This document shows, piece by piece, positions 33,424 to 53,900 of a stretch of DNA of 64,000 nt. The notes beneath the pieces are model-generated. The model made no database searches. It was not told the origin of the DNA and worked only from the letters and a program-made list of their open reading frames with translations. The position numbers were made by a program, and so were the translations under genes. Where the stretch lies: positions 124,001 to 188,000 of the forward strand of contig BCKZ01000023.1 of NCBI GenBank assembly GCA_001600815.1. The letters run 5' to 3'. How positions within the stretch are numbered: the first letter of the stretch is position 1; each line of letters begins with the position of its first letter. This DNA comes from Alloascoidea hylecoeti. Lineage: Eukaryota.

Positions 33424-33696
33424 GTTACGGGGGTTTAATTGTAAGGAGATGGTTTTTGGTTACAATTCATGTGACATGACACAATAATAAGAAAATACAA
33501 GCCCGAAGTAAAAGCCCGGACAGCTTTTATTAACAATAGGGAGTATCGGGTTTCCAGGTGTGGGGTGACCCGCAGCCACAAAATGAGCCACACCGGGCTG
33601 AAAAATAAGGCTAGTGCTATAAATGTGACAAATTTCCCATCAAACTTTTCATTAGAAATATCATTTCTAGATCTGACATTACTGACTATTATAAAT

Positions 33697-36600
33697 ATGG
33701 TGCCGTCAATTGATACCAGATCAAGATCCACCTCTCCAGAAGGGAAATCTGCTTCTGCTTCTTCTCTTCCGTTTCCATTTGGTGAACAGACAGATATACA
33801 CACTCTCTTGGGGAATACTATCACCACAGGCCAAACTTTAGTTGAACAATCTTTGTACTCTGTGGCTAAGCACATTTTTGCCTATGACGCCGAGACCTTT
33901 CAGTTTGGCAAAGAGATCTCAAATTGGGCAAAACGGTCAACCAAAAACCCTCAAGGTTTAGTACCCGCATTCACCTCTTTGGAAACTCGGGCCGGTGCTG
34001 GTTCAGGTCTACTTGGTTATATTGAGTCCCAAGCAACTACTGCTCACACTCCAGTTTTGGGATCATCTACTCTGTTAGAATATTTTAAGCCAACACTTGC
34101 TCAATACGCTGCTTCAAATGAAGATTTACCTCCACTGCATTTTGCATTGGCTGCCATTGGTTATAACCAGACAACCCAGTCGCTTATTACCGACTATGCA
34201 ACACCAATAAATGTGGCTAGAGATCTTGGGTTGAGTTTGATAGCATCTACTTCATTCAATGATGTTCAGCATATCACTGTTTTTGCTTCTGTTTTGTCTC
34301 TGATTACTCCCGTTGTCCAAGTCTATGATGGTATTCATTATCTCAGGGAGAGCGTTAATGTTGAAAATGTCCTTCACACAGGAACTATCTCCGATGCCTA
34401 CCAAAAACTTATCGGACATGTCGATGATCTCAGGGCAATTGACAATCCACAACAACGTGTTGCTTCACTTCTCAACCTTGTTAACAATTGTTTCGGGTCC
34501 TCATATCACCCATTTGAATACTTTGGTAGTAAGGAAGCTGAAACCGTAATAGTTTCTTTTGGATCATCCGAATCTACAATTACTTCAAAAGTTGTATCAG
34601 CTTTAGGTGCCAAAGGTATTAAGGTTGGGTCCGTATCTGTTAGAATTTACTTCCCTTTCTTAGAGGCTGAATTTGTATCATTACTCCCACCGACTGTCAA
34701 AAACATTATTGTTTTAGGTCAAGTTGGATCTGAGACAGATGTCACCGATGTTGCGGTTCATTCTGCCTTGTTCACAGATGTTACTGCCTCTTTGCTTTTA
34801 ACTCAAGGTTTCGACTTCAGAGCAATTCCTGATATTATCGATCACAAATATTCTACCAATGGTTCATTTATTGAATCCGATATTCTTGAGGTTCTTAATC
34901 AAGCCGATGCAAATATTAGCATTGAAGAATCTAAAGGTAACTTCATATTCTGGAATGTTGATGACGCAAACACACTCAATGTCCCAAATAGATTAGCACA
35001 TGCTTTATCTTTAGAAAATGAGAATAGAAACATTGATTATATTACTACATTTGATAATGTTGCATTGGCTGGTGTTGTTCAAACAGAGCTTCGAATTTCA
35101 GATAACTATATTCCTGCTCCTTCTTCCCATATCGAGAATGCAGAAGTTGTCGTTGTTTCTTCACCTAAGATTTTGGAAGTATTTGATGTTTTGGAAAATG
35201 CTAAAGTTGGGGGCACTGTTCTATTGTCAACTTCATATACTACTGAAGAACTTGAACAAAAGATTCCTTTCACTTTTAAGAAAACTGCTTTTGATAAAGA
35301 TATCAAATTATTCCTTTTAAATCATGAAGCTATTGGAGAACATCCAGAAACGGCTGGAAAAACTGAAAGTATGGTAGAACAAATTGCATTTTGGAACATA
35401 ATTAAACCCGAGTTAGGAGAGAAAATTGCACACAAAATTTGGTTGAGTAATGGTGACGATATTGAACTTGTTGCTGCTATTTTAGTAAAGTTGGGTGAAA
35501 AAGTCGTAGGTGACGCTTTAAAACAATTCCCTATTCCCGAAACTTGGTCTAAGATAGAGGATACAAATGCTGATGCTAAAAATAATGAGGATTCAACCAC
35601 TGTTGATGATGAAAAAAAGGAGGAGGCAGTTGAAGAAGCTATCACTTGTCCTTCTATAGCTACCCCAACAAGTTTCAGTGTATCTGACAAGAGTCTTTAT
35701 AATGCTCCAGTACCTGAGGTCAATTCTTGGATAGATATTGCTAAGAAGCTCGCTTTCCAAGAAGCTTATAATCTTGAAAAACCGTTGAGACCAGATTTGC
35801 CAGTTAAGAATTTTATTGTTAAGGTAAAGGAAAATAGACGTGTTACTCCGGACTATTATGATCGTAACATTTTTCACATTGAATTCGATACCACTGGAAC
35901 TGGTCTTAAGTATGAAATTGGTGAAGCTCTTGGAATCCATGGAAAAAATAATGGAAAAAATGTCCAGGAGTTCTTGGACCTTTATGGTTTAGATCCATCC
36001 AAAGTTGTTACTGTACCTTCAAGAGATGATCCAGAGATATTGGAGTCAAGAACGGTATTCCAATCATTTTCCGAAAATCTTGATCTTTTCGGTAAACCTC
36101 CAAAACGTTTCTACGAATCTCTATCTAAATTTGCTACAAATGAAGTTGAAAGAAAACAACTTGAGAAATTGGTATCTCCTGAGGGTGTGGATGAATTAAA
36201 AAAGCTTCAAGAAGTAGAATTTGCAACTTATGCAGATGTTTTTGAACAATTTAAGTCTGCAAGACCTCCAGTTGAAGAACTTATATCGTTGATTGCACCT
36301 TTGAAGAGAAGGGAATACTCAATCGCTTCCTCTCAAAGAGTTCATCCAAATGCAGTTCACTTACTTATTGTAGTTGTTGATTGGATTGACAAAAAGGGTA
36401 GAAAGAGATTTGGTCATTGTTCAAAATATATCTCGGATTTAAATATTGGCGAAGAACTTGTTGTTTCTGTTAAGCCATCTGTTATGAAACTACCCAAGTT
36501 AACTACAGCTCCTATTGTAATGAGTGGTTTAGGTACCGGTCTTGCTCCATTCAAAGCATTCGTGGAAGAAAAACTTTGGCAGAAACAGAATGGACATGAG

Positions 36601-36969
36601 ATTGGAGATATTTATCTATACTTAGGATCTCGTCATAAGAAAGAGGAATATCTTTATGGTGAACTTTGGGAAGCCTATAAAGATGCGGGAATTATCACTC
36701 ATATTGGTGCAGCATTCTCCAGAGACCAACCTCAGAAGATTTATATTCAAGATAAAATTAGAGAGAGTATGGACAGCTTAGTTGGTGCCATGATTGAAAA
36801 GAAGGGTTCATTTTACCTCTGCGGTCCAACATGGCCGGTTCCGGATATCACTGCAGTCCTTTCGGATATCATTGTGAAGGAAGCCAAAGAACGAGGTGTT
36901 AAGGTCGATACTTCTAAAGAAATTGAGGCTTTGAAGGAAGCGGAAAGATATATTTTAGAAGTTTATTAA
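33697..36969 (+). CDS. MET10: Sulfite reductase (NADPH) flavoprotein alpha subunit
   Basis: PFOR-like N-terminus (LETRAGAG), FAD-binding RREYSIASS, NAD-binding GLGTGLAPF, C-terminal ERYILEVY. Start placed at ATG 33697 (MVPSID). Confidence 0.95.
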   Translation: MVPSIDTRSRSTSPEGKSASASSLPFPFGEQTDIHTLLGNTITTGQTLVEQSLYSVAKHIFAYDAETFQFGKEISNWAKRSTKNPQGLVPAFTSLETRAGAGSGLLGYIESQATTAHTPVLGSSTLLEYFKPTLAQYAASNEDLPPLHFALAAIGYNQTTQSLITDYATPINVARDLGLSLIASTSFNDVQHITVFASVLSLITPVVQVYDGIHYLRESVNVENVLHTGTISDAYQKLIGHVDDLRAIDNPQQRVASLLNLVNNCFGSSYHPFEYFGSKEAETVIVSFGSSESTITSKVVSALGAKGIKVGSVSVRIYFPFLEAEFVSLLPPTVKNIIVLGQVGSETDVTDVAVHSALFTDVTASLLLTQGFDFRAIPDIIDHKYSTNGSFIESDILEVLNQADANISIEESKGNFIFWNVDDANTLNVPNRLAHALSLENENRNIDYITTFDNVALAGVVQTELRISDNYIPAPSSHIENAEVVVVSSPKILEVFDVLENAKVGGTVLLSTSYTTEELEQKIPFTFKKTAFDKDIKLFLLNHEAIGEHPETAGKTESMVEQIAFWNIIKPELGEKIAHKIWLSNGDDIELVAAILVKLGEKVVGDALKQFPIPETWSKIEDTNADAKNNEDSTTVDDEKKEEAVEEAITCPSIATPTSFSVSDKSLYNAPVPEVNSWIDIAKKLAFQEAYNLEKPLRPDLPVKNFIVKVKENRRVTPDYYDRNIFHIEFDTTGTGLKYEIGEALGIHGKNNGKNVQEFLDLYGLDPSKVVTVPSRDDPEILESRTVFQSFSENLDLFGKPPKRFYESLSKFATNEVERKQLEKLVSPEGVDELKKLQEVEFATYADVFEQFKSARPPVEELISLIAPLKRREYSIASSQRVHPNAVHLLIVVVDWIDKKGRKRFGHCSKYISDLNIGEELVVSVKPSVMKLPKLTTAPIVMSGLGTGLAPFKAFVEEKLWQKQNGHEIGDIYLYLGSRHKKEEYLYGELWEAYKDAGIITHIGAAFSRDQPQKIYIQDKIRESMDSLVGAMIEKKGSFYLCGPTWPVPDITAVLSDIIVKEAKERGVKVDTSKEIEALKEAERYILEVY

Positions 36970-47400: not shown

Positions 47401-48366
47401 AAATGTGAAAACACATGAAAAAGCTTAGTATCTAAATAATGTATTATATCCATATAATTATTATCTTGACAACTGCAAGCCTTACACTACACCGGTATAA
47501 CTGTAATCAACGGTAGTCTAATAGGATTAGAGCCGCGGGTGTGGTTGTCTTGAAGCTATTAATGTAGATCACGATTAATTATAAGAATTCACGTGTCCAT
47601 TACACAAGTTTATATTTACTATACTCTAAGAAAATTTTAAAGGGAGTTAACGTCGGGCGTAGCAGTATTGAGTTTTTCTAAAATCCACGTCATGAAATGA
47701 TTAAATATGATGTTAAGAACAATTGGGTTGTAATATCTAAATATAGAAATCTTGCGGTCTTTTGGAAAATAATAAGTTTCTAATTCTCATAAACTTTCAA
47801 ACCCCCTTTTGGTGTAATTAACTAATTTTATTAATAATTGTTTTGCAATTTCTTATGCTCATGAGGCTAATTTTTTGTTTGAGGTTCTTCAAAAAAAGCT
47901 TGGTAAAGCATATATTTATTATTATAATTATGGTTGTTAAGGGATCTACGCAGGAAAACTTGGCAACAATACATGCATAATTACCATAACTATTACAAAT
48001 TAAGATTAGATAATGGAAAGCTTAAGGCCTTAGTATCAAGAGTTTAATTGCATAGATAAGGCCGCATATGTATGTGAACCAACTCAGCCAAGATTGCCTC
48101 AGTAATAGACTAATGAAAATCCTATTTATCCGCACCCGGATCGAAATAGCAATATTTAATATTAATAATAGATAGATGAGAAGTACCACTACTAATGCTG
48201 ATCCTACTCAATCACATTCGGATCGAAATAATAATCTGTAATATTATTGATAGACATATACGGAATTAGAACAGTGGTTGGAAAAATGGTATGATGGTAT
48301 TTATACGTACACATGACTTCATAACTATACGCATATGCATATTTGCATGGTGTTATACTACATTTA

Positions 48367-48735
48367 TAAATGAGAATTTAAATTTGTTCTGAAGATTCTA
48401 TGGAAAAAGAAACTGATTATAAATAGCCCTAAACATAAGTTACATTCAAAAACAATGTTAAATTTCAACATGAATGTAATATGTATGTACCGTCCGGTCT
48501 GTAGATACCGGACGGTACTAGGATTCCGGACACAACATAATTGATATTTTCAACCACCATTTTCTTAACCCAAAAATTAATATAAATTAAATTTAATACT
48601 ATCACTAAAATCTATTTAATCTCGTAATTCTGATAATGATTTTTCAATATACACCTTTTGTGTTTTCTGTTGTGGAGTGGGATATTTTCTCCGACTTAGA
48701 GTATTTAGATTATTAGATTCAGCAGCATCAGTCTT
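48367..48735 (+). repeat. Left terminal inverted repeat
   Basis: Reverse complement of the right arm: mismatches at 48371, 48425, 48455, flipped 8-bp spacer 48499-48506, perfect over 48507-48692, then diverged with a 9-bp indel. Confidence 0.95.
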
Positions 48736-48968
48736 TCAACATAATTTTCGGTATCTATTATTAGCTGGAAATTTTTTATTCGGGTATCATTGGATGAGTT
48801 GAAGTTCATATGATATATTAGAATTAGTTTTATGGAACCTACTGTCGTAAGTTGCGAGAAATAGGGTGGTTTGAGGAATTATGACCAGCCATCCCAAAAC
48901 GCGATAATCGGGAGCATATAAAAGTACTTCGTCTTTCAATCGTCACCAAACCTCCATCATAAGTTCAA

Positions 48969-50556
48969 ATGGCTCATACAAGATTTGTGCAGAATGAGAA
49001 TCAGCGTCAGAATATGTTAGTCGACGCGGCTGTCGATTATAAGCGAAAACACATGAATCAGTCGTTCCGGAAGGTTTCTAAAAAATTCTCTGTTCCAAGA
49101 TCAACTTTAAACGATCGTTTCAATGGTTCATCATCACACAAGGATTCCCACATTTTTCAAATGGTTCTAACACCCCTTGAGGAGCAGGAGCTTGTTTTGG
49201 AGGCTGTTGTTTTTCTCGAAAAATGAGTGTGCCGCTAATTTAAAACAGTTTCGTGAGATAGTGGATGATCTGGCAATTATCATATGCCTTTTATGTCCCA
49301 ACATACCACCTTGTCATACAAAAAGGCGCGTAAATTAGATGCCTATAGGTTCTTGAGTGAGGACCCCAAGTATATCCGCGAATGGTACACACTGCTCCAT
49401 CAGGCTAGCAAAACAACACCAGAATCTCATATTTGTAACTTAGATGAAACTGGTACCCAGCTTGGCGTCACTGATAAAGGGGAAAAGTGATTTGTGTCCT
49501 CTACTCAAAAGAAGTTTGCTCAAATTAAATTCCCGAGAGGAAAGCTCATCTCGTCTGTCGAATGCGTGTGTGCCGATGGTTCCAGGACTGCTCCACTCAT
49601 TATATTTAAAAAAAAGGAGGATGATGATGTCTCACCTGCCTGGGTACCTGATAATGAAGATAAGATATTAAAGAATTAAGTATTTACATGTTCCGGTTCT
49701 GGTTATATAAATGGAGATTTGATGTTAAGACGGTTACACGAATTACTTCCCATATTGCGAAAAAGGACTCATTATTTTATTAGACGGGAATTCTAGTCAT
49801 ATCTCATTTAGACTAGTTATGGAATGTATTAAATATGATATTCGACTCTTTATATTGTCTGCGCACACCAGCCAATCGACGCAGATATTAGACGTCTCTT
49901 GTTTTGATCCTCTTAAAAAGGGGTTGAAAAACATCTATGACGAAATCCTAGTAGATAAACCCAATAATAATAGGGCACAAAAAGGAGAATTCATTGAAAT
50001 ATATAAGAAGGCCAGATCTGATCCAATAACAGCTGGAAATATTCGTTCTAGTTATAGGGCAACCGGAATATACCCATTTGAGCCAGAGAAGATTTTATCG
50101 AAACTTGGAGAAGTTTGGGTGGCAGAAAACGAGGAAGAACAAACGAAAAAATCCGAGAGAAATTTCATTTTATATAAAGATTTTGAGGGAGAATTAAAAT
50201 CCGAAACGTTTGTGAACGAAGCTCAACGATGTTGGAAAGGCTGAAAATATATGATGTATCGGAGGATGAATTTCGTATTTGGAAGAATTGGCTTGGGGGT
50301 GCAAACAGGCTTTATTATAAAATACATCCACCAATATTCTTGAAGATCCCTTAAAAACTATCCGGAGTGGACTTAAGACTTCTAAGAGGGGAAAGCACTC
50401 ATAACACATAATTCCCCTGAGATAACGAAGAGAAATGCATGTCGTGAGATTGGTGCTGCTGAGCTAAATACACTAAGTTGGAGAAAATATCCCACTCCAC
50501 AACAGAAAACACAAAAGGTGTATATTGAAAAATCATTATCAGAATTACGAGATTAA
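48969..50556 (+). pseudogene. Fot1-like transposase, frameshifted with stops
   Basis: HTH (FSVPRSTLNDRFNG), LTPLEEQELV, ICNLDETG, VECVCADG..APLIIFK, ILLDGNSSH-(35 aa spacing)-QILDVSCFDPLK, NIRSSYRATGIYPF. The 3' end at 50556 is inferred. Confidence 0.9.
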
Positions 50557-50805
50557 ATAGATTTTAGTGATAGTATTAAATTTAATTTATATTAATTTTT
50601 GGGTTAAGAAAATGGTGGTTGAAAATATCAATTATGTTGTGTCCGGAATCCTAGTACCGTCCGGTCTGTAGATACCGGACGGTACATACATATTACATTC
50701 ATGTTGAAATTTAACACTGTTTTTGAATGTAACTTATGTTTAGGGCGATTTATAATCAGTTTCTTTTTCCATAGAATCTTCAGAACAAATTTAAATTCTC
50801 GTTTA
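50446..50805 (-). repeat. Right terminal inverted repeat
   Basis: Partner of 48367-48735; contains the palindrome at 50654-50685. Confidence 0.95.
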
Positions 50806-50940: not shown

Positions 50941-53900
50941 TGTATCTCGAATTCCGAAGATAATATATGGTAAATGAACTATTGAAAAAATGGTAGTGCC
51001 CACTGGCCATGTGAGAGATACAATTCATCCTAATATGCCGTAAATCACATAATTAGAGAGGGAAATCTGGACCTTCCATTTCACCCATATAAACTATTTC
51101 CCTAATATAATAAAATTTGTGTAATCTGTGACTCAATTAACATCTCAGAGGTGGAGTAATCTGTTTTGACACTATGTCTGGAACGTATTGTATATATATA
51201 TATATATATATATACATATATTAGTACACCATTTTCCGTCTGTATATATTTAATTATATAGTACCATAAAAAAAAATTAAATATGAAAAAACTGGAGCCA
51301 CGCATGTTGAAATATTAACAGTGGAGACACTGGAGAACACTAGTTCCCAGTATATGATGGATCACCTCTACAATAAAAGTGCACAAAAGGGAAGAATCGA
51401 CAATCTGGCCATGAACGGTCGCCTTCTTTGAGTATTATTAAAGATTTAAGATTTAAGATTTGGCAGCAGAGCTGAAATAAAATTGTAGATGAGGAAAATA
51501 ACCGCTATCCTTTTCTTTTTGATGTTATATTCCTCTCTTTAGTTCTACACAGTTTTAGTCTTATAAATATAAGTATAGGCATATATATTTAGTAGTATAA
51601 TTTTACCATACAAATAGTTATAATAAATACAGAAGCATACAATAACTTTGCCTTACGAGTAGTTACTAGTATATACTGGTTTTATAATCGAGAACAAAAC
51701 TCACATCGCGATTAAAAGTTTCAACGAGTAATTTCCAAATATGACACTGTGTATATAGTATATATATTTACTCTATATGGATACATACATATGCATATGT
51801 GGATATAGAATAACTATATATGAGAGTGCACTGAATAAAGTGGGAAAAATGAACTAAATTGATTTTATTTAGCATTTATTTATTTGTACATTCATTCAGA
51901 ATTGTTATTTATGGTTATTGATGCCTGGTAGAGCTAGTACTAGTATCAAAAATGGGTGTTAACCTGTTGAAAAAAGCTCAACATGGTTAAGAACTCGGAG
52001 GTCGAACTTCGATCACTCACCTAATTAAGTATTGTATGAATGCTGTGAGTGCATACTGTTGCATATGCATGTGAGACGGAGTAAGGAAAAGACCATACAC
52101 CGACCGCCTCAATGCAATTCGGTAAAATAAAGTTAGAACGTATTAAATTCTATTGGCCATTTATAATTGTTGTTAGTGGTTGATTGTTCGGAATCGAAAA
52201 AGGAGTGTTGGGAAAAATGCCCATATGCCCTTTTATTAATTATAGTTGTGATCTTCTGTTCATCGGGTTAAGTGTTAAGTGTCAATACTTTCCGGTATAC
52301 GGCTATAACAATAAAGTTTTTCCAAAGCTGATGTTGGAAATTGGAAATTATCGTTAAAAGTATTTTTTTAATACCAGTTTAAGAATATTCGAATGCATGA
52401 ATGAAAGGTTAGTAGTTTAGAGCTGAAAATTAGAGATATTATTAGCAAATTATAAATATTAATGTAACGATTTTGATGCTAGCTACAGATGTATTTATAG
52501 TAGTACAATGTAGATATAGAGATGTGCACCCGCTTATTTCAGAGGTTAACTCATGAGTTTTGAACGAGCTCAGGCTCAAATCAGGGTCACAAGCTGAGTG
52601 TGAGCTGAGAATGAAGCCTACTACAAGTGCTTAGAATATGTGGAATAGCAAGAGGGTTATTTATTGAACTGAGCGTTCTCTACATTCAATATTTGTCAGT
52701 TCAATATGCATACAAGAATCTAGCTTCAGCTTTTATTCATAATTAGTATGTAACAATTATAATATCTATTGGAAACTTTAATTTCATATTTTTACTCTCA
52801 ATTAAACTTGCAAGACTTATAAATGATGCTTAATTTGATACGAAATCATATATATAATTACTCCAAAAATATCGCAAAAATATCCGAGATTAAACTAGAA
52901 AATCATCAATTTAAATTCAATTGTTATTCTTTTTTCGGCCGTGGATATCTTTCAATTGCAATTATGTTTTGTTTAAAAACATTTTCCAAAATTAAATTGA
53001 ATAAGACACTCCAAATTATATAGTTTATAATATTTTTCTGCATAACTGATAATTGGAATATAATTAACGCAATTGGGACTAAGCCTAAACTTGAGTAGTG
53101 CTAATTGGGTACACGTAACTACATACATTATACGTATAAAGTCGGAATTGCAATAAATAGTAATGTCATAAATTCATAATTAAACTTAACTTGAGAGAGC
53201 GGAATAAGTAGATCTATATATAGTTATATAATAGTTGGAACTAAGTCCCTTCACAAGAGTATTATATGTATTGTAGCGGTGATATCGATGCTATTTATAA
53301 ATCACACTACGTATTAATTTCAATTGCAGCAGTGACTTCTTGAAGTTGAATTATAATTAGTTTTGCGCCGTTTCCACAAAACTTTAAGCTGTAAGTCCAT
53401 TAGCTATAACTAACTATAAAAACAACTCACATGAAAATGAAAATCCCATAATCACGATTGACAACCCCTTTTATATATTTGTAGATTTGGCAGATAACAA
53501 AATTAATATAATGTATCAGGTATCACGTATTCTAGATGGAGGCCGGCATATAATCCTAGGCCTATATTTATTGTTGACCACATTAAATGACAATGCTAGA
53601 TATAGGACAATACTTCTGGAATAGATATCGATGCATATGATTATGTGAATTTAAAATCGATTGCTATATGAATTAAGTCACAACGTCTATACCCTTGTAT
53701 AACAAAGGTAAAATGGTAAGCATATACCAGTTTTATTGGAATCTGATAGAGATTACCTCATTATATAAACATATCATTCTAATACAATAGTTAGGAATAA
53801 ACTTATTATACCAAACTTAGAGAGATATAGGAAATCATAAGTGCTCGTGCACATGATATAACTTGATTCCCAAAATGTATCTTGATAGGTATGTCTATAC

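What the first reader, a model, noticed from the sequence alone, without database searches (positions are those of the whole stretch)
48487..50685. lox/FRT-shaped 12-8-12 sites in both transposon arms, with the spacer flipped relative to the inverted repeat
Seen: GTACCGTCCGGT-ctgtagat-ACCGGACGGTAC occurs at 48487-48518 and 50654-50685. The flanking DNA on both sides is inverted, so the right copy should read atctacag on the + strand. It reads ctgtagat, so the two asymmetric spacers are in direct orientation. Known: 12-13 bp arms around an 8-bp asymmetric spacer is the geometry of tyrosine-recombinase sites (loxP, FRT); FRT sits inside the long inverted repeats of 2-micron plasmids; direct sites excise a circle; flip/flop loops also mark hairpin-end replication. 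Inference: this DDE element may carry a second, recombinase- or hairpin-based handle that could excise a ~2.17 kb circle containing the transposase. The mundane alternative is one template-switch micro-inversion of a GC-rich hairpin loop. No recombinase gene was seen in the window.
Basis: partly seen in the sequence, partly recalled or inferred. Interest (0 to 1): 0.82.

Follow-up and report, generated by a model that had tools for sequence, protein, structure and literature searches.

The report
Flipped hairpin loop in transposon end
A decayed cut-and-paste transposon in a fungal chromosome has a small GC-rich hairpin at each tip, and the 8-base loop of one hairpin has turned over, most likely through an ordinary DNA copying slip and not because the hairpin is a recombination site.

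Summary
The 32-mer (12-bp stem, 8-nt loop, 12-bp stem) occurs exactly twice, at 48487-48518 and 50654-50685. It sits in register inside a 341-bp inverted repeat. Its loop reads the same on the + strand in both arms, so four of the eight loop positions break the repeat, and they do so exactly as a reverse complement would.

The element is a pseudogenised pogo/Fot1-type DDE transposon in an AT-rich fungal nuclear region: HTH_psq plus DDE_1, six in-frame stops and a frameshift.

Public contigs show the family is multi-copy and that its mobile part starts at TA|CCGTCCGGT (48488/48490). The hairpin is therefore the tip of the family's end. The outer 118 bp of the repeat belongs to this locus only.

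The left-arm loop orientation is shared with other copies. The right-arm orientation sits only on single-copy contigs of this locus. No tyrosine recombinase was found in 100 of 100 window ORFs of 75 aa or more.

Best reading: one loop inversion by template switching within the hairpin, a known mutation class. Nothing supports the recombinase or circle idea. No whole genome or raw reads were available, so the evidence on other copies is indirect. Interest is low.

The parts
48367..48368 (.). TA at the outer edge of the whole inverted repeat. Its mirror partner is 50804-50805.
   Evidence: sequence print. Position 48366 no longer pairs with 50806. TA is its own reverse complement, so it cannot be told apart from the last 2 bp of the repeat.
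48369..48486 (.). Left outer inverted repeat, specific to this locus and not part of the multi-copy family.
   Evidence: three mismatches to the right arm (48371, 48425, 48455); covered by one contig per run at about 1.3 times the flank depth (X2: 78.6 against 59.9-61).
48487..48518 (+). Left 32-mer: stem 48487-48498, loop CTGTAGAT 48499-48506, stem 48507-48518. TA lies at 48488-89 and 48516-17 around a 26-bp core, 48490-48515.
   Evidence: In one search other copies join this locus at 48485/48488 (loose ends, and the joint 48896 to 48488). The contig end at 48525 shows that the 30-mer 48496-48525, which holds this loop orientation, occurs elsewhere in the genome.
48519..48708 (.). Left inner terminal inverted repeat of the multi-copy pogo-like family. 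It carries a second CCGGAC motif at 48526-48531, 18 bp after the one in stem 2.
   Evidence: 2 of 190 mismatches to the right arm, and the motif positions; depth 12-40 times the flanks.
48963..50244 (+). Transposase pseudogene: HTH_psq remnant at 48963-49226 and the C-terminal half of DDE_1 at 49729-50244.
   Evidence: HTH_psq 20.5 bits against a cut-off of 20.4; DDE_1 32.9 bits against 22; tblastn to five 540-571-aa homologues runs in two frames; six in-frame stops in 48963-49766, then a frame change.
50464..50653 (.). Right inner terminal inverted repeat.
50654..50685 (+). Right 32-mer. Its loop at 50666-50673 reads CTGTAGAT on the + strand, so it is flipped relative to the repeat. TA lies at 50655-56 and 50683-84.
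   Evidence: X1 record 7 (50636-50800) has 0 differences at depth 10.9, against flank depths of 11.8-12.3. It ends at the last 31-mer that still holds a flipped loop base.
50686..50803 (.). Right outer inverted repeat, specific to this locus.

Best explanation
The two 32-mers are the terminal hairpins of one decayed, non-autonomous copy of a multi-copy pogo/Fot1-type (Tc1/mariner-IS630 group) DNA transposon in a fungal chromosome. In the family each end reads, from outside to inside, TA, CCGTCCGGT, CTGTAGAT, ACCGGACGG, TA, CTAGGATTCCGGAC and onward. The two ends were originally perfect mirror images, loop included.

In this copy the 8-nt loop of the right-hand hairpin was later inverted in place. 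The likely mechanism is as follows. When the DNA is single-stranded during replication or repair synthesis, the 12-bp GC-rich stems snap back. The polymerase then switches template across the hairpin, copies the loop from the complementary strand, and switches back. This is the 'loop inversion' class of template-switch (quasipalindrome) mutation.

The stems are palindromic, so only the loop changes, and only at its four non-self-complementary positions. The result looks like two lox/FRT-shaped sites in direct orientation, but it is a mutational scar and not a recombination target.

Shown: the sequence facts, the transposon family, the multi-copy status, the position of the family terminus, and the single-copy status of the flipped-loop contig. 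Inferred: which arm flipped, and the mechanism.
For: 1. The inversion is exact. Four of eight loop positions differ and all four match the reverse complement. Both 12-bp stems are identical, and the flanks differ at only 5 of 309 other positions.

2. The substrate is right for a snap-back: a perfect 12-bp stem of 67% GC in a window whose 2-kb bins run 23-40% GC. It is the only such hairpin in the window.

3. The element is a TA-flanked pogo-type transposon pseudogene.

4. The family is multi-copy. In X2 the depth is 232-2431 across the element (48428-50674), against about 60 in the flanks.

5. Other copies meet this locus at 48485/48488. One contig has a loose end before 48485 in each of the 4 runs, three contigs have one before 48488 in X4, and there is a joint from 48896 to 48488 in X2 and X4. 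All are laid on the left arm, so they carry the left-type loop.

6. Contig 10 of X2 and X3 ends at 48525, so its last 31-mer starts at 48495. The 30-mer 48496-48525, which holds the left-type loop, stem 2 and the inner repeat, therefore recurs elsewhere in the genome (my graph reasoning).

7. The flipped state is real in the reads of X1. Record 7 (50636-50800) has 0 differences at depth 10.9, against flanks of 11.8-12.3. It ends exactly at the last 31-mer that contains a flipped base (50666). The flipped 31-mers are therefore single copy.

8. In X1, X2 and X3 the depth of bin 50675-50781 (12.2, 6.27, 1.29) is fully accounted for by the listed contigs of this locus. No end from another locus carries the right-type loop (my arithmetic).

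9. The depth of contig 10 in X2 (78.6) matches a collapsed contig in which the left-type loop is present on one arm only: 1.29 times 60 is about 77. If both arms carried the left-type loop the figure would be 1.51 times 60, about 90 (my arithmetic).

10. Loop inversion at hairpins is a documented mutation class.
- PMC8794818 (passages read): 'loop inversion only', 69 cases, enriched over simulations.
- PMC12371153 (passages read): small inversions of 4-50 bp in plastid DNA, facilitated by hairpins.
- PMC7954356 (passages read).
- Yeast and E. coli quasipalindrome work (abstracts only).
Against: Everything about other copies comes from one lay of k=31 Logan contigs. Such contigs drop rare variants, pop bubbles and are filtered. 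Only part of each table was shown: 40 of 341 'other letter' rows, 24 of 212 loose ends and 32 of 987 pieces.

I never saw the sequence of another copy's end. Neither the whole genome nor raw reads were available (all four runs are contigs).

X1 may be the sample the window was assembled from, so its agreement is not independent. In X1 the depth of record 7 (10.9) is lower than my collapsed-contig expectation of about 15, so the depth arithmetic is noisy.

X2 and X3 show a contig with right-arm SNP alleles joined to the left-type loop. I read this as bubble collapse, but it could mean those strains lack the flip. For X4 the right-hand bin leaves 38.4 depth units unexplained by the listed pieces.

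The mechanism itself is inferred from the product only.
Confidence: 0.72

Rival explanations
1. The direct-loop arrangement is the inherited state of this element or subfamily. Either the flip happened in a master copy, or the TA-26 bp-TA unit is a 30-bp direct repeat at both tips, and several copies share it. It would still be a mutational relic, but not private to this locus.
For: One search shows contigs, not reads, and only a fraction of its rows. The family evidently varies near the tip: position 48495 differs in other copies, judging by where contig 10 ends. Subfamilies with other tips could have been missed at the 88% likeness threshold.
Against: The X1 contig carrying the flipped loop is at single-copy depth and is not broken by branches from other flanks. 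In X1-X3 nothing from other loci is laid on 50675-50685. At least five ends from other loci are laid on the left-type arm and none on the right-type arm.
Confidence: 0.12
2. The flip is an assembly, polishing or library artefact at a palindrome, and the true right arm is a perfect mirror of the left.
For: Palindromes are prone to such errors. X2 and X3 (organism A, two other studies) give a contig with right-arm SNP alleles but the left-type loop, and nothing is laid on the right hairpin's outer stem. X1 may be the window's own source.
Against: A de Bruijn contig cannot hold 31-mers that are absent from the reads. X1 record 7 links the flipped loop to the outer flank with 0 differences at single-copy depth. 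The depth of contig 10 in X2 (78.6) fits the left-type loop being present on one arm only (about 77) better than on both (about 90) (my arithmetic).
Confidence: 0.08
3. The 32-mers are working targets of a site-specific tyrosine recombinase (lox/FRT-like), or loops that flip through a hairpin or cruciform intermediate. This would give the element a second way to excise as a 2.17-kb circle or to invert its loop reversibly. A variant: the TA-flanked 26-bp core, which carries the family's terminal 9-mer at both of its own ends, is cut out and put back the other way round by the transposase.
For: The geometry fits: 12-bp inverted arms around an asymmetric 8-bp spacer, in direct orientation. TA lies on both sides of the 26-bp core at both ends. 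A possible difference between X1 and X2/X3 at the right arm could be read as ongoing flipping.
Against: No recombinase domain was found in 100 of 100 window ORFs of 75 aa or more. The site is simply the tip of a pogo-type end. The arrangement looks private to one decayed copy. From general knowledge, not tested here: Tc1/mariner-type transposases are not known to use hairpin intermediates, and 26 bp is too short to pair two ends. Direct sites with an active recombinase would delete the element.
Confidence: 0.04

Closest known systems
Hairpin-loop micro-inversions by template switching: quasipalindrome or 'loop inversion' template-switch mutations, and the small inversions in chloroplast non-coding hairpins
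   Same: A short segment (8 nt here; 4-50 bp in plastids) between perfect inverted repeats is replaced by its exact reverse complement, with length kept and stems untouched. Passages read in PMC8794818, PMC12371153 and PMC7954356.
   Different: Here it lies in the terminal inverted repeat of a nuclear fungal DNA transposon. The partner arm serves as a built-in reference, and the product mimics a pair of directly oriented recombinase sites. The event itself was not observed.
pogo/Fot1 (Tc5-type) transposons of the IS630-Tc1-mariner group
   Same: DDE_1 catalytic domain and Psq-type HTH. Five homologues of 540-571 aa all carry DDE_1; HTH_Tnp_Tc5 reaches Pfam's cut-off in 3 of the 5 and HTH_psq in 1. 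Terminal inverted repeats are flanked by TA, and the family is multi-copy. Family reviews PMC7325037 and PMC7386202 were seen as search listing and abstract only.
   Different: Best full-length relatives are only 35-40% identical over the DDE_1 part (tblastn; 37-40% by phmmer). The repeats are long (219 bp for the family part, 341 bp at this locus). A perfect 12-8-12 palindrome sits at the very tip. This copy is a pseudogene.
loxP (Cre) and FRT (Flp) tyrosine-recombinase sites
   Same: Two inverted arms of 12-13 bp around an asymmetric 8-bp spacer. The reference geometry of loxP and FRT is recalled, not checked in any call.
   Different: There is no recombinase gene in the window, and the site is a transposon tip. 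The direct orientation is confined to one copy, and no recombination product is shown.

Membership tests
pogo/Fot1-type DDE transposon (IS630-Tc1-mariner group) | DDE_1 (PF03184) catalytic domain | tested here: met
   49729-50244 scores 32.9 bits (cut-off 22), E = 6.1e-8, but matches only profile positions 78-177; 4012 library proteins at E <= 0.001; homologues carry full DDE_1.
pogo/Fot1-type DDE transposon (IS630-Tc1-mariner group) | N-terminal CENP-B/Psq-type helix-turn-helix DNA-binding domains | tested here: inconclusive
   HTH_psq scores 20.5 bits against a cut-off of 20.4 (barely passes). HTH_Tnp_Tc5 was not detected in this copy; in the homologues HTH_Tnp_Tc5 reaches Pfam's cut-off in 3 of 5 (two more lie just below it), and HTH_psq in 1 of 5 (a second lies just below).
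pogo/Fot1-type DDE transposon (IS630-Tc1-mariner group) | Terminal inverted repeats flanked by a TA target duplication | tested here: met
   341-bp inverted repeat. TA lies at 48488-89 and 50683-84, next to the family terminus inferred, and also at 48367-68 and 50804-05. Caveat: TA is palindromic and lies inside a larger inverted repeat, so duplication cannot be proven at this locus.
pogo/Fot1-type DDE transposon (IS630-Tc1-mariner group) | Intact transposase reading frame (autonomous element) | tested here: not met
   six in-frame stops in 48963-49766 and a frame change before 49729; about 425 codons against 540-571 aa in the homologues. This is a decayed member.
Tyrosine-recombinase target site (loxP/FRT type) | Inverted 12-13-bp arms around a 6-8-bp asymmetric spacer | tested here: met
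   12-8-12, with a spacer that is not self-complementary.
Tyrosine-recombinase target site (loxP/FRT type) | A cognate tyrosine recombinase encoded by the element or the genome | tested here: not met
   0 of 100 stop-to-stop ORFs of 75 aa or more in the window match an integrase or Flp family. The cut-offs were E <= 0.001, 0.01 and 0.1. The rest of the genome could not be searched.
Tyrosine-recombinase target site (loxP/FRT type) | Recombination products: circle junction, solo site, or both orientations | not testable with these tools
   The site is 32 bp and the only public data were k=31 contigs. A circle junction or solo site creates no new 31-mer. There are no extra copies of the 32-mer in the window, and none in metagenome contigs or genome contigs.
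Hairpin-loop inversion (template-switch mutation) | The inverted segment is the exact reverse complement, keeps its length, and is bounded by perfect inverted repeats that stay unchanged | tested here: met
   stems 0 of 12 and 0 of 12 mismatches. The loop has 4 of 8 mismatches, all as predicted by the reverse complement.
Hairpin-loop inversion (template-switch mutation) | An outgroup shows the ancestral state, so a single event is seen on one lineage | tested here: inconclusive
   the left-type loop recurs in other copies, and the right-type loop is seen only on single-copy contigs of this locus. These are contigs, and no sequence of another copy was seen.

The most novel reading that the evidence does not exclude
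The palindromic tip is a working part of this pogo-like family and not only a scar. Each end carries a TA-flanked 26-bp unit that has the family's terminal 9-mer at both of its own ends. Loops would then be turned over repeatedly, either by hairpin or cruciform processing or by the transposase cutting at the inner and outer TA. Loop orientation would be a polymorphic, possibly strain-variable state of the ends, and the possible X1 versus X2/X3 difference would be the first hint of this.
Probability: 0.05. Interest if true: 0.6.

Novelty: new member of a known kind. Interest (0 to 1): 0.17.

Why it matters
It matters mainly as a caution. A palindromic hairpin inside a transposon's inverted repeat, after one loop inversion, looks just like a pair of directly oriented lox/FRT sites. 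Geometry alone should not be read as a recombinase target.

It is also a clean nuclear, eukaryotic example of a template-switch loop inversion, in which the partner arm of the same element serves as an internal reference.

The unresolved side issue is how the inverted repeat at this locus came to extend 118 bp beyond the family's ends. That may bear on how long transposon repeats grow.

Tried and rejected
- Whole-genome search for other copies: no genome is held for this window.

- Exact 32-mer pattern, spacer left free: 0 hits in metagenome contigs and 0 in genome contigs.

- Relatives of the 171-aa DDE_1 piece in metagenome contigs: 382 pattern matches, none confirmed by tblastn.

- Word-index protein search of the same piece among longer proteins: 463 candidates, none at E <= 0.001. 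The exhaustive HMMER search did find relatives, but only two short fragments are close (82% and 75% identity). The rest are 41% identical or less. I therefore did not try to compare the tips of relatives' repeats.

- Other copies or solo sites in the window: blastn of the element against the window found only itself.

- Earlier notes of this scan: no notes on this genome and no look-alike windows.

- A multi-copy MITE as the source of the outer 118-bp repeat: rejected at the level of these data, because its depth fits the two arms of this one locus.

- A 32-bp target duplication around an inner element: rejected, because the DNA outside the 32-mers is inverted, not direct, and other copies include the hairpin.

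- Four independent substitutions in the loop: rejected on probability (counts).

- RIP-like mutation bias between this copy and the other copies: none evident in the change counts (C>T 38, G>A 45, T>C 32, A>G 35 in X1).

- Parts of the stretch without contig cover in single runs, for example 48425 and 48455 in X1 and X4: not used as evidence.
Full report
**1. The observation.**
The 32-mer GTACCGTCCGGT-CTGTAGAT-ACCGGACGGTAC is present exactly at 48487-48518 and 50654-50685, both on the + strand. With up to two mismatches allowed there are two matches in the 64-kb window, and none in 100 dinucleotide-preserving shuffles.

The two copies lie in register inside a long inverted repeat in which position p pairs with 99172-p. 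Mismatches between the arms, counted:

| Segment | Mismatches |
|---|---|
| Outer part 48368-48486 | 3 of 119 |
| Stem 1 | 0 of 12 |
| Loop 48499-48506 | 4 of 8 |
| Stem 2 | 0 of 12 |
| Inner part 48519-48708 | 2 of 190 |

Similarity is lost beyond both ends. All four loop mismatches are what a reverse complement of the loop gives, and the other four loop positions are unchanged by inversion. Given about 1.5% divergence elsewhere, four independent substitutions producing this are very unlikely (my arithmetic, roughly 1e-5 or less).

The 32-mer is the only GC-rich perfect hairpin in the window with a stem of 10 bp or more. It folds at -14.5 kcal/mol as single-stranded DNA, z = -3.86. The window's GC content runs 23-40% in 2-kb bins.

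**2. What the element is.**
Between the arms lies a broken transposase gene. A Psq-type helix-turn-helix remnant sits at 48963-49226 (20.5 bits, cut-off 20.4). The C-terminal half of a DDE_1 domain sits at 49729-50244 (32.9 bits, cut-off 22).

An exhaustive HMMER search with the DDE_1 piece found 4012 relatives at E <= 0.001. Only two short fragments are close (82% and 75% identity), and the rest are 41% identical or less. Five full-length relatives of 540-571 aa all carry DDE_1. HTH_Tnp_Tc5 reaches Pfam's cut-off in three of the five and HTH_psq in one. This is the pogo/Fot1 (Tc5) architecture. tblastn lays these relatives on the element in two reading frames.

The frame from 48963 has six in-frame stops and then shifts. 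This copy is therefore a dead, non-autonomous pogo/Fot1-type element.

The surrounding ORFs are ordinary fungal nuclear genes: Anp1, septin, Ku70, PP4R3, a succinate dehydrogenase membrane subunit, ribosomal proteins and others.

**3. Where the hairpin sits in the mobile unit.**
No whole genome is held, so other copies could only be studied through public runs. Five runs from three studies hold the stretch or part of it. Four hold more than half of it: one wood-decay metagenome (X1) and three runs of 'organism A' (X2-X4). All are kept as k=31 contigs.

Flank depth is single-copy (X2: 59.9 and 61). The element interior and the inner repeat are 4-40 times deeper (X2: 232-2431), so the family is multi-copy.

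The outer part of the repeat (48402-48486) is covered by one contig per run at only about 1.3 times the flank depth. Contigs from other loci diverge from this locus at 48485 (one contig in each of the four runs) and at 48488 (three contigs in X4). One contig joins 48896 back to 48488 (X2, X4).

The family's terminus is therefore TA(48488-89)|CCGTCCGGT. The hairpin is the very tip of the family's inverted repeat, and the outer 118 bp belongs to this locus only.

TA also follows the 26-bp core (48516-17; mirrored at 50655-56 and 50683-84). A CCGGAC motif occurs three times per end, once inverted in stem 1, once in stem 2 and once 18 bp further in. This could reflect transposase binding sites, which is an inference.

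**4. Is the direct-loop arrangement a family trait or private?**
This rests and on my reading of how k=31 contigs end.

- (a) X1 record 7 reproduces the right arm (50636-50800) with 0 differences at depth 10.9, against flanks of 11.8-12.3. It ends at 50636, so its last 31-mer is the last one that still contains a flipped loop base (50666). It is also not broken by branches from other flanks. The flipped-loop 31-mers are therefore single copy.
- (b) Contig 10 of X2 and X3 (48372-48525) ends where its last 31-mer starts at 48495. The 30-mer 48496-48525, which holds the left-type loop, stem 2 and the inner repeat, therefore recurs elsewhere, preceded by a different base at 48495. The left-type loop is the shared one. 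Family copies probably have an imperfect stem 1.
- (c) In X1, X2 and X3 the mean depth of bin 50675-50781 (12.2, 6.27, 1.29) is fully accounted for by the listed contigs of this locus. No end from another locus is laid on the outer stem of the right-type hairpin. At least five ends from other loci are laid on the left-type arm. If the family norm were one left-type and one right-type end, the two types should be equally common.
- (d) Contig 10 carries the right-arm SNP alleles (C at 48425, G at 48455) with the left-type loop. These SNPs are more than 31 nt from the loop, so a k=31 graph cannot phase them, and I read the contig as a bubble-collapsed mix of the two arms. Its depth in X2 (78.6) matches that expectation with the left-type loop on one arm only: (61 + 2 x 36 + 27)/124 = 1.29 times 60, about 77. 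With the left-type loop on both arms it would be 1.51 times 60, about 90.

Caveats on this section:
- The same arithmetic overestimates X1 record 7 (expected about 15, observed 10.9).
- X4 leaves 38.4 depth units unexplained in the right-hand bin.
- Contigs drop variants, and most table rows were not shown.
- X1 may be the window's own source.

My conclusion is that the flip is real in reads and private to this locus's right arm. That conclusion is indirect.

**5. Mechanism.**
The product is an exact in-place reverse complement of a loop between perfect stems, with length preserved. That is the signature of a template-switch 'loop inversion'. The literature support is:

- Mönttinen and Löytynoja (PMC8794818, passages read) list 'loop inversion only' as a mutation pattern explainable by a single template switch: 69 cases, enriched over simulations.
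- The plastid literature describes pervasive small inversions of 4-50 bp facilitated by hairpins (PMC12371153, passages read).
- Short-range template switching and quasipalindrome conversion are described for primates, yeast and E. coli (PMC7954356, passages; others as abstracts only).
- One of those abstracts (bioRxiv 10.1101/2023.08.09.552703) states that such errors are far more frequent during double-strand-break repair.

That last point suggests the loop flip and the extension of the repeat into the flank might stem from a single repair event. This is speculation, and nothing here tests it.

**6. The recombinase or circle reading.**
The 12-8-12 geometry does resemble loxP and FRT (their geometry is recalled, not checked in any call). 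No integrase, Flp or other recombinase domain was found in any of the 100 stop-to-stop ORFs of 75 aa or more in the window: 19, 79 and 2.

The site is the TA-flanked tip of a TA-targeting element, and the direct orientation appears confined to one dead copy. Circle junctions and solo sites cannot be tested with k=31 contigs, because the 32-bp site leaves them without a diagnostic 31-mer. The 32-mer is absent from the metagenome and prokaryote genome collections. I put this reading, including a variant in which the transposase flips the TA-flanked 26-bp core, at about 4%.

**7. Unresolved.**
Two things remain open:
- The origin of the locus-specific outer 118-bp inverted repeat. Either the element inserted into the central TA of a single-copy palindrome of about 236 bp, or a flank was copied during repair.
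- Whether the X2/X3 strains carry the flip.

**8. Earlier notes of this scan.**
Two unrelated bacterial cases (e1-3867351, e1-4374548) reached the same kind of conclusion for flipped hairpin loops in small mobile elements. They are analogies, not evidence for this locus.

**9. Verdict.**
Interest is low.

Noticed in passing
window 48369-48486 and 50686-50803: The inverted repeat at this locus extends 118 bp beyond the termini of the multi-copy family, and public contigs cover it only at about the depth of this one locus. Either the element landed in the central TA of a single-copy palindrome of about 236 bp, or one flank was copied to the other side during repair.
   Followed up: partly
window 48495 (mirror 50677): The contig ends imply that other family copies carry a different base at 48495. 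The family's terminal stem would then be imperfect, whereas both hairpins of this locus are perfect.
   Followed up: partly
window 48492-48531 (mirror 50641-50680): The motif CCGGAC occurs three times per end: inverted in stem 1, direct in stem 2, and direct again 18 bp further in. These may be transposase binding sites.
   Followed up: no
window 48109-48259: Two copies of a 69-nt unit, 74% alike and 82 bp apart, lie just upstream of the element.
   Followed up: no
window 51180-51260: An AT-dinucleotide microsatellite forms overlapping palindromes just downstream of the element.
   Followed up: no
window 49488 and other positions in 48577-50598: At many positions every contig laid from other copies reads another base than the window. 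For example, 49488 is T in the window (part of a TGA stop) and C in 5-12 contigs per run. This copy therefore carries private disabling mutations, and less decayed copies may exist in the genome.
   Followed up: partly
window 33475-36969: A 1164-aa ORF combines pyruvate:ferredoxin-oxidoreductase-type domains (PFOR_II, POR) with FAD_binding_1 and NAD_binding_1 domains.
   Followed up: no
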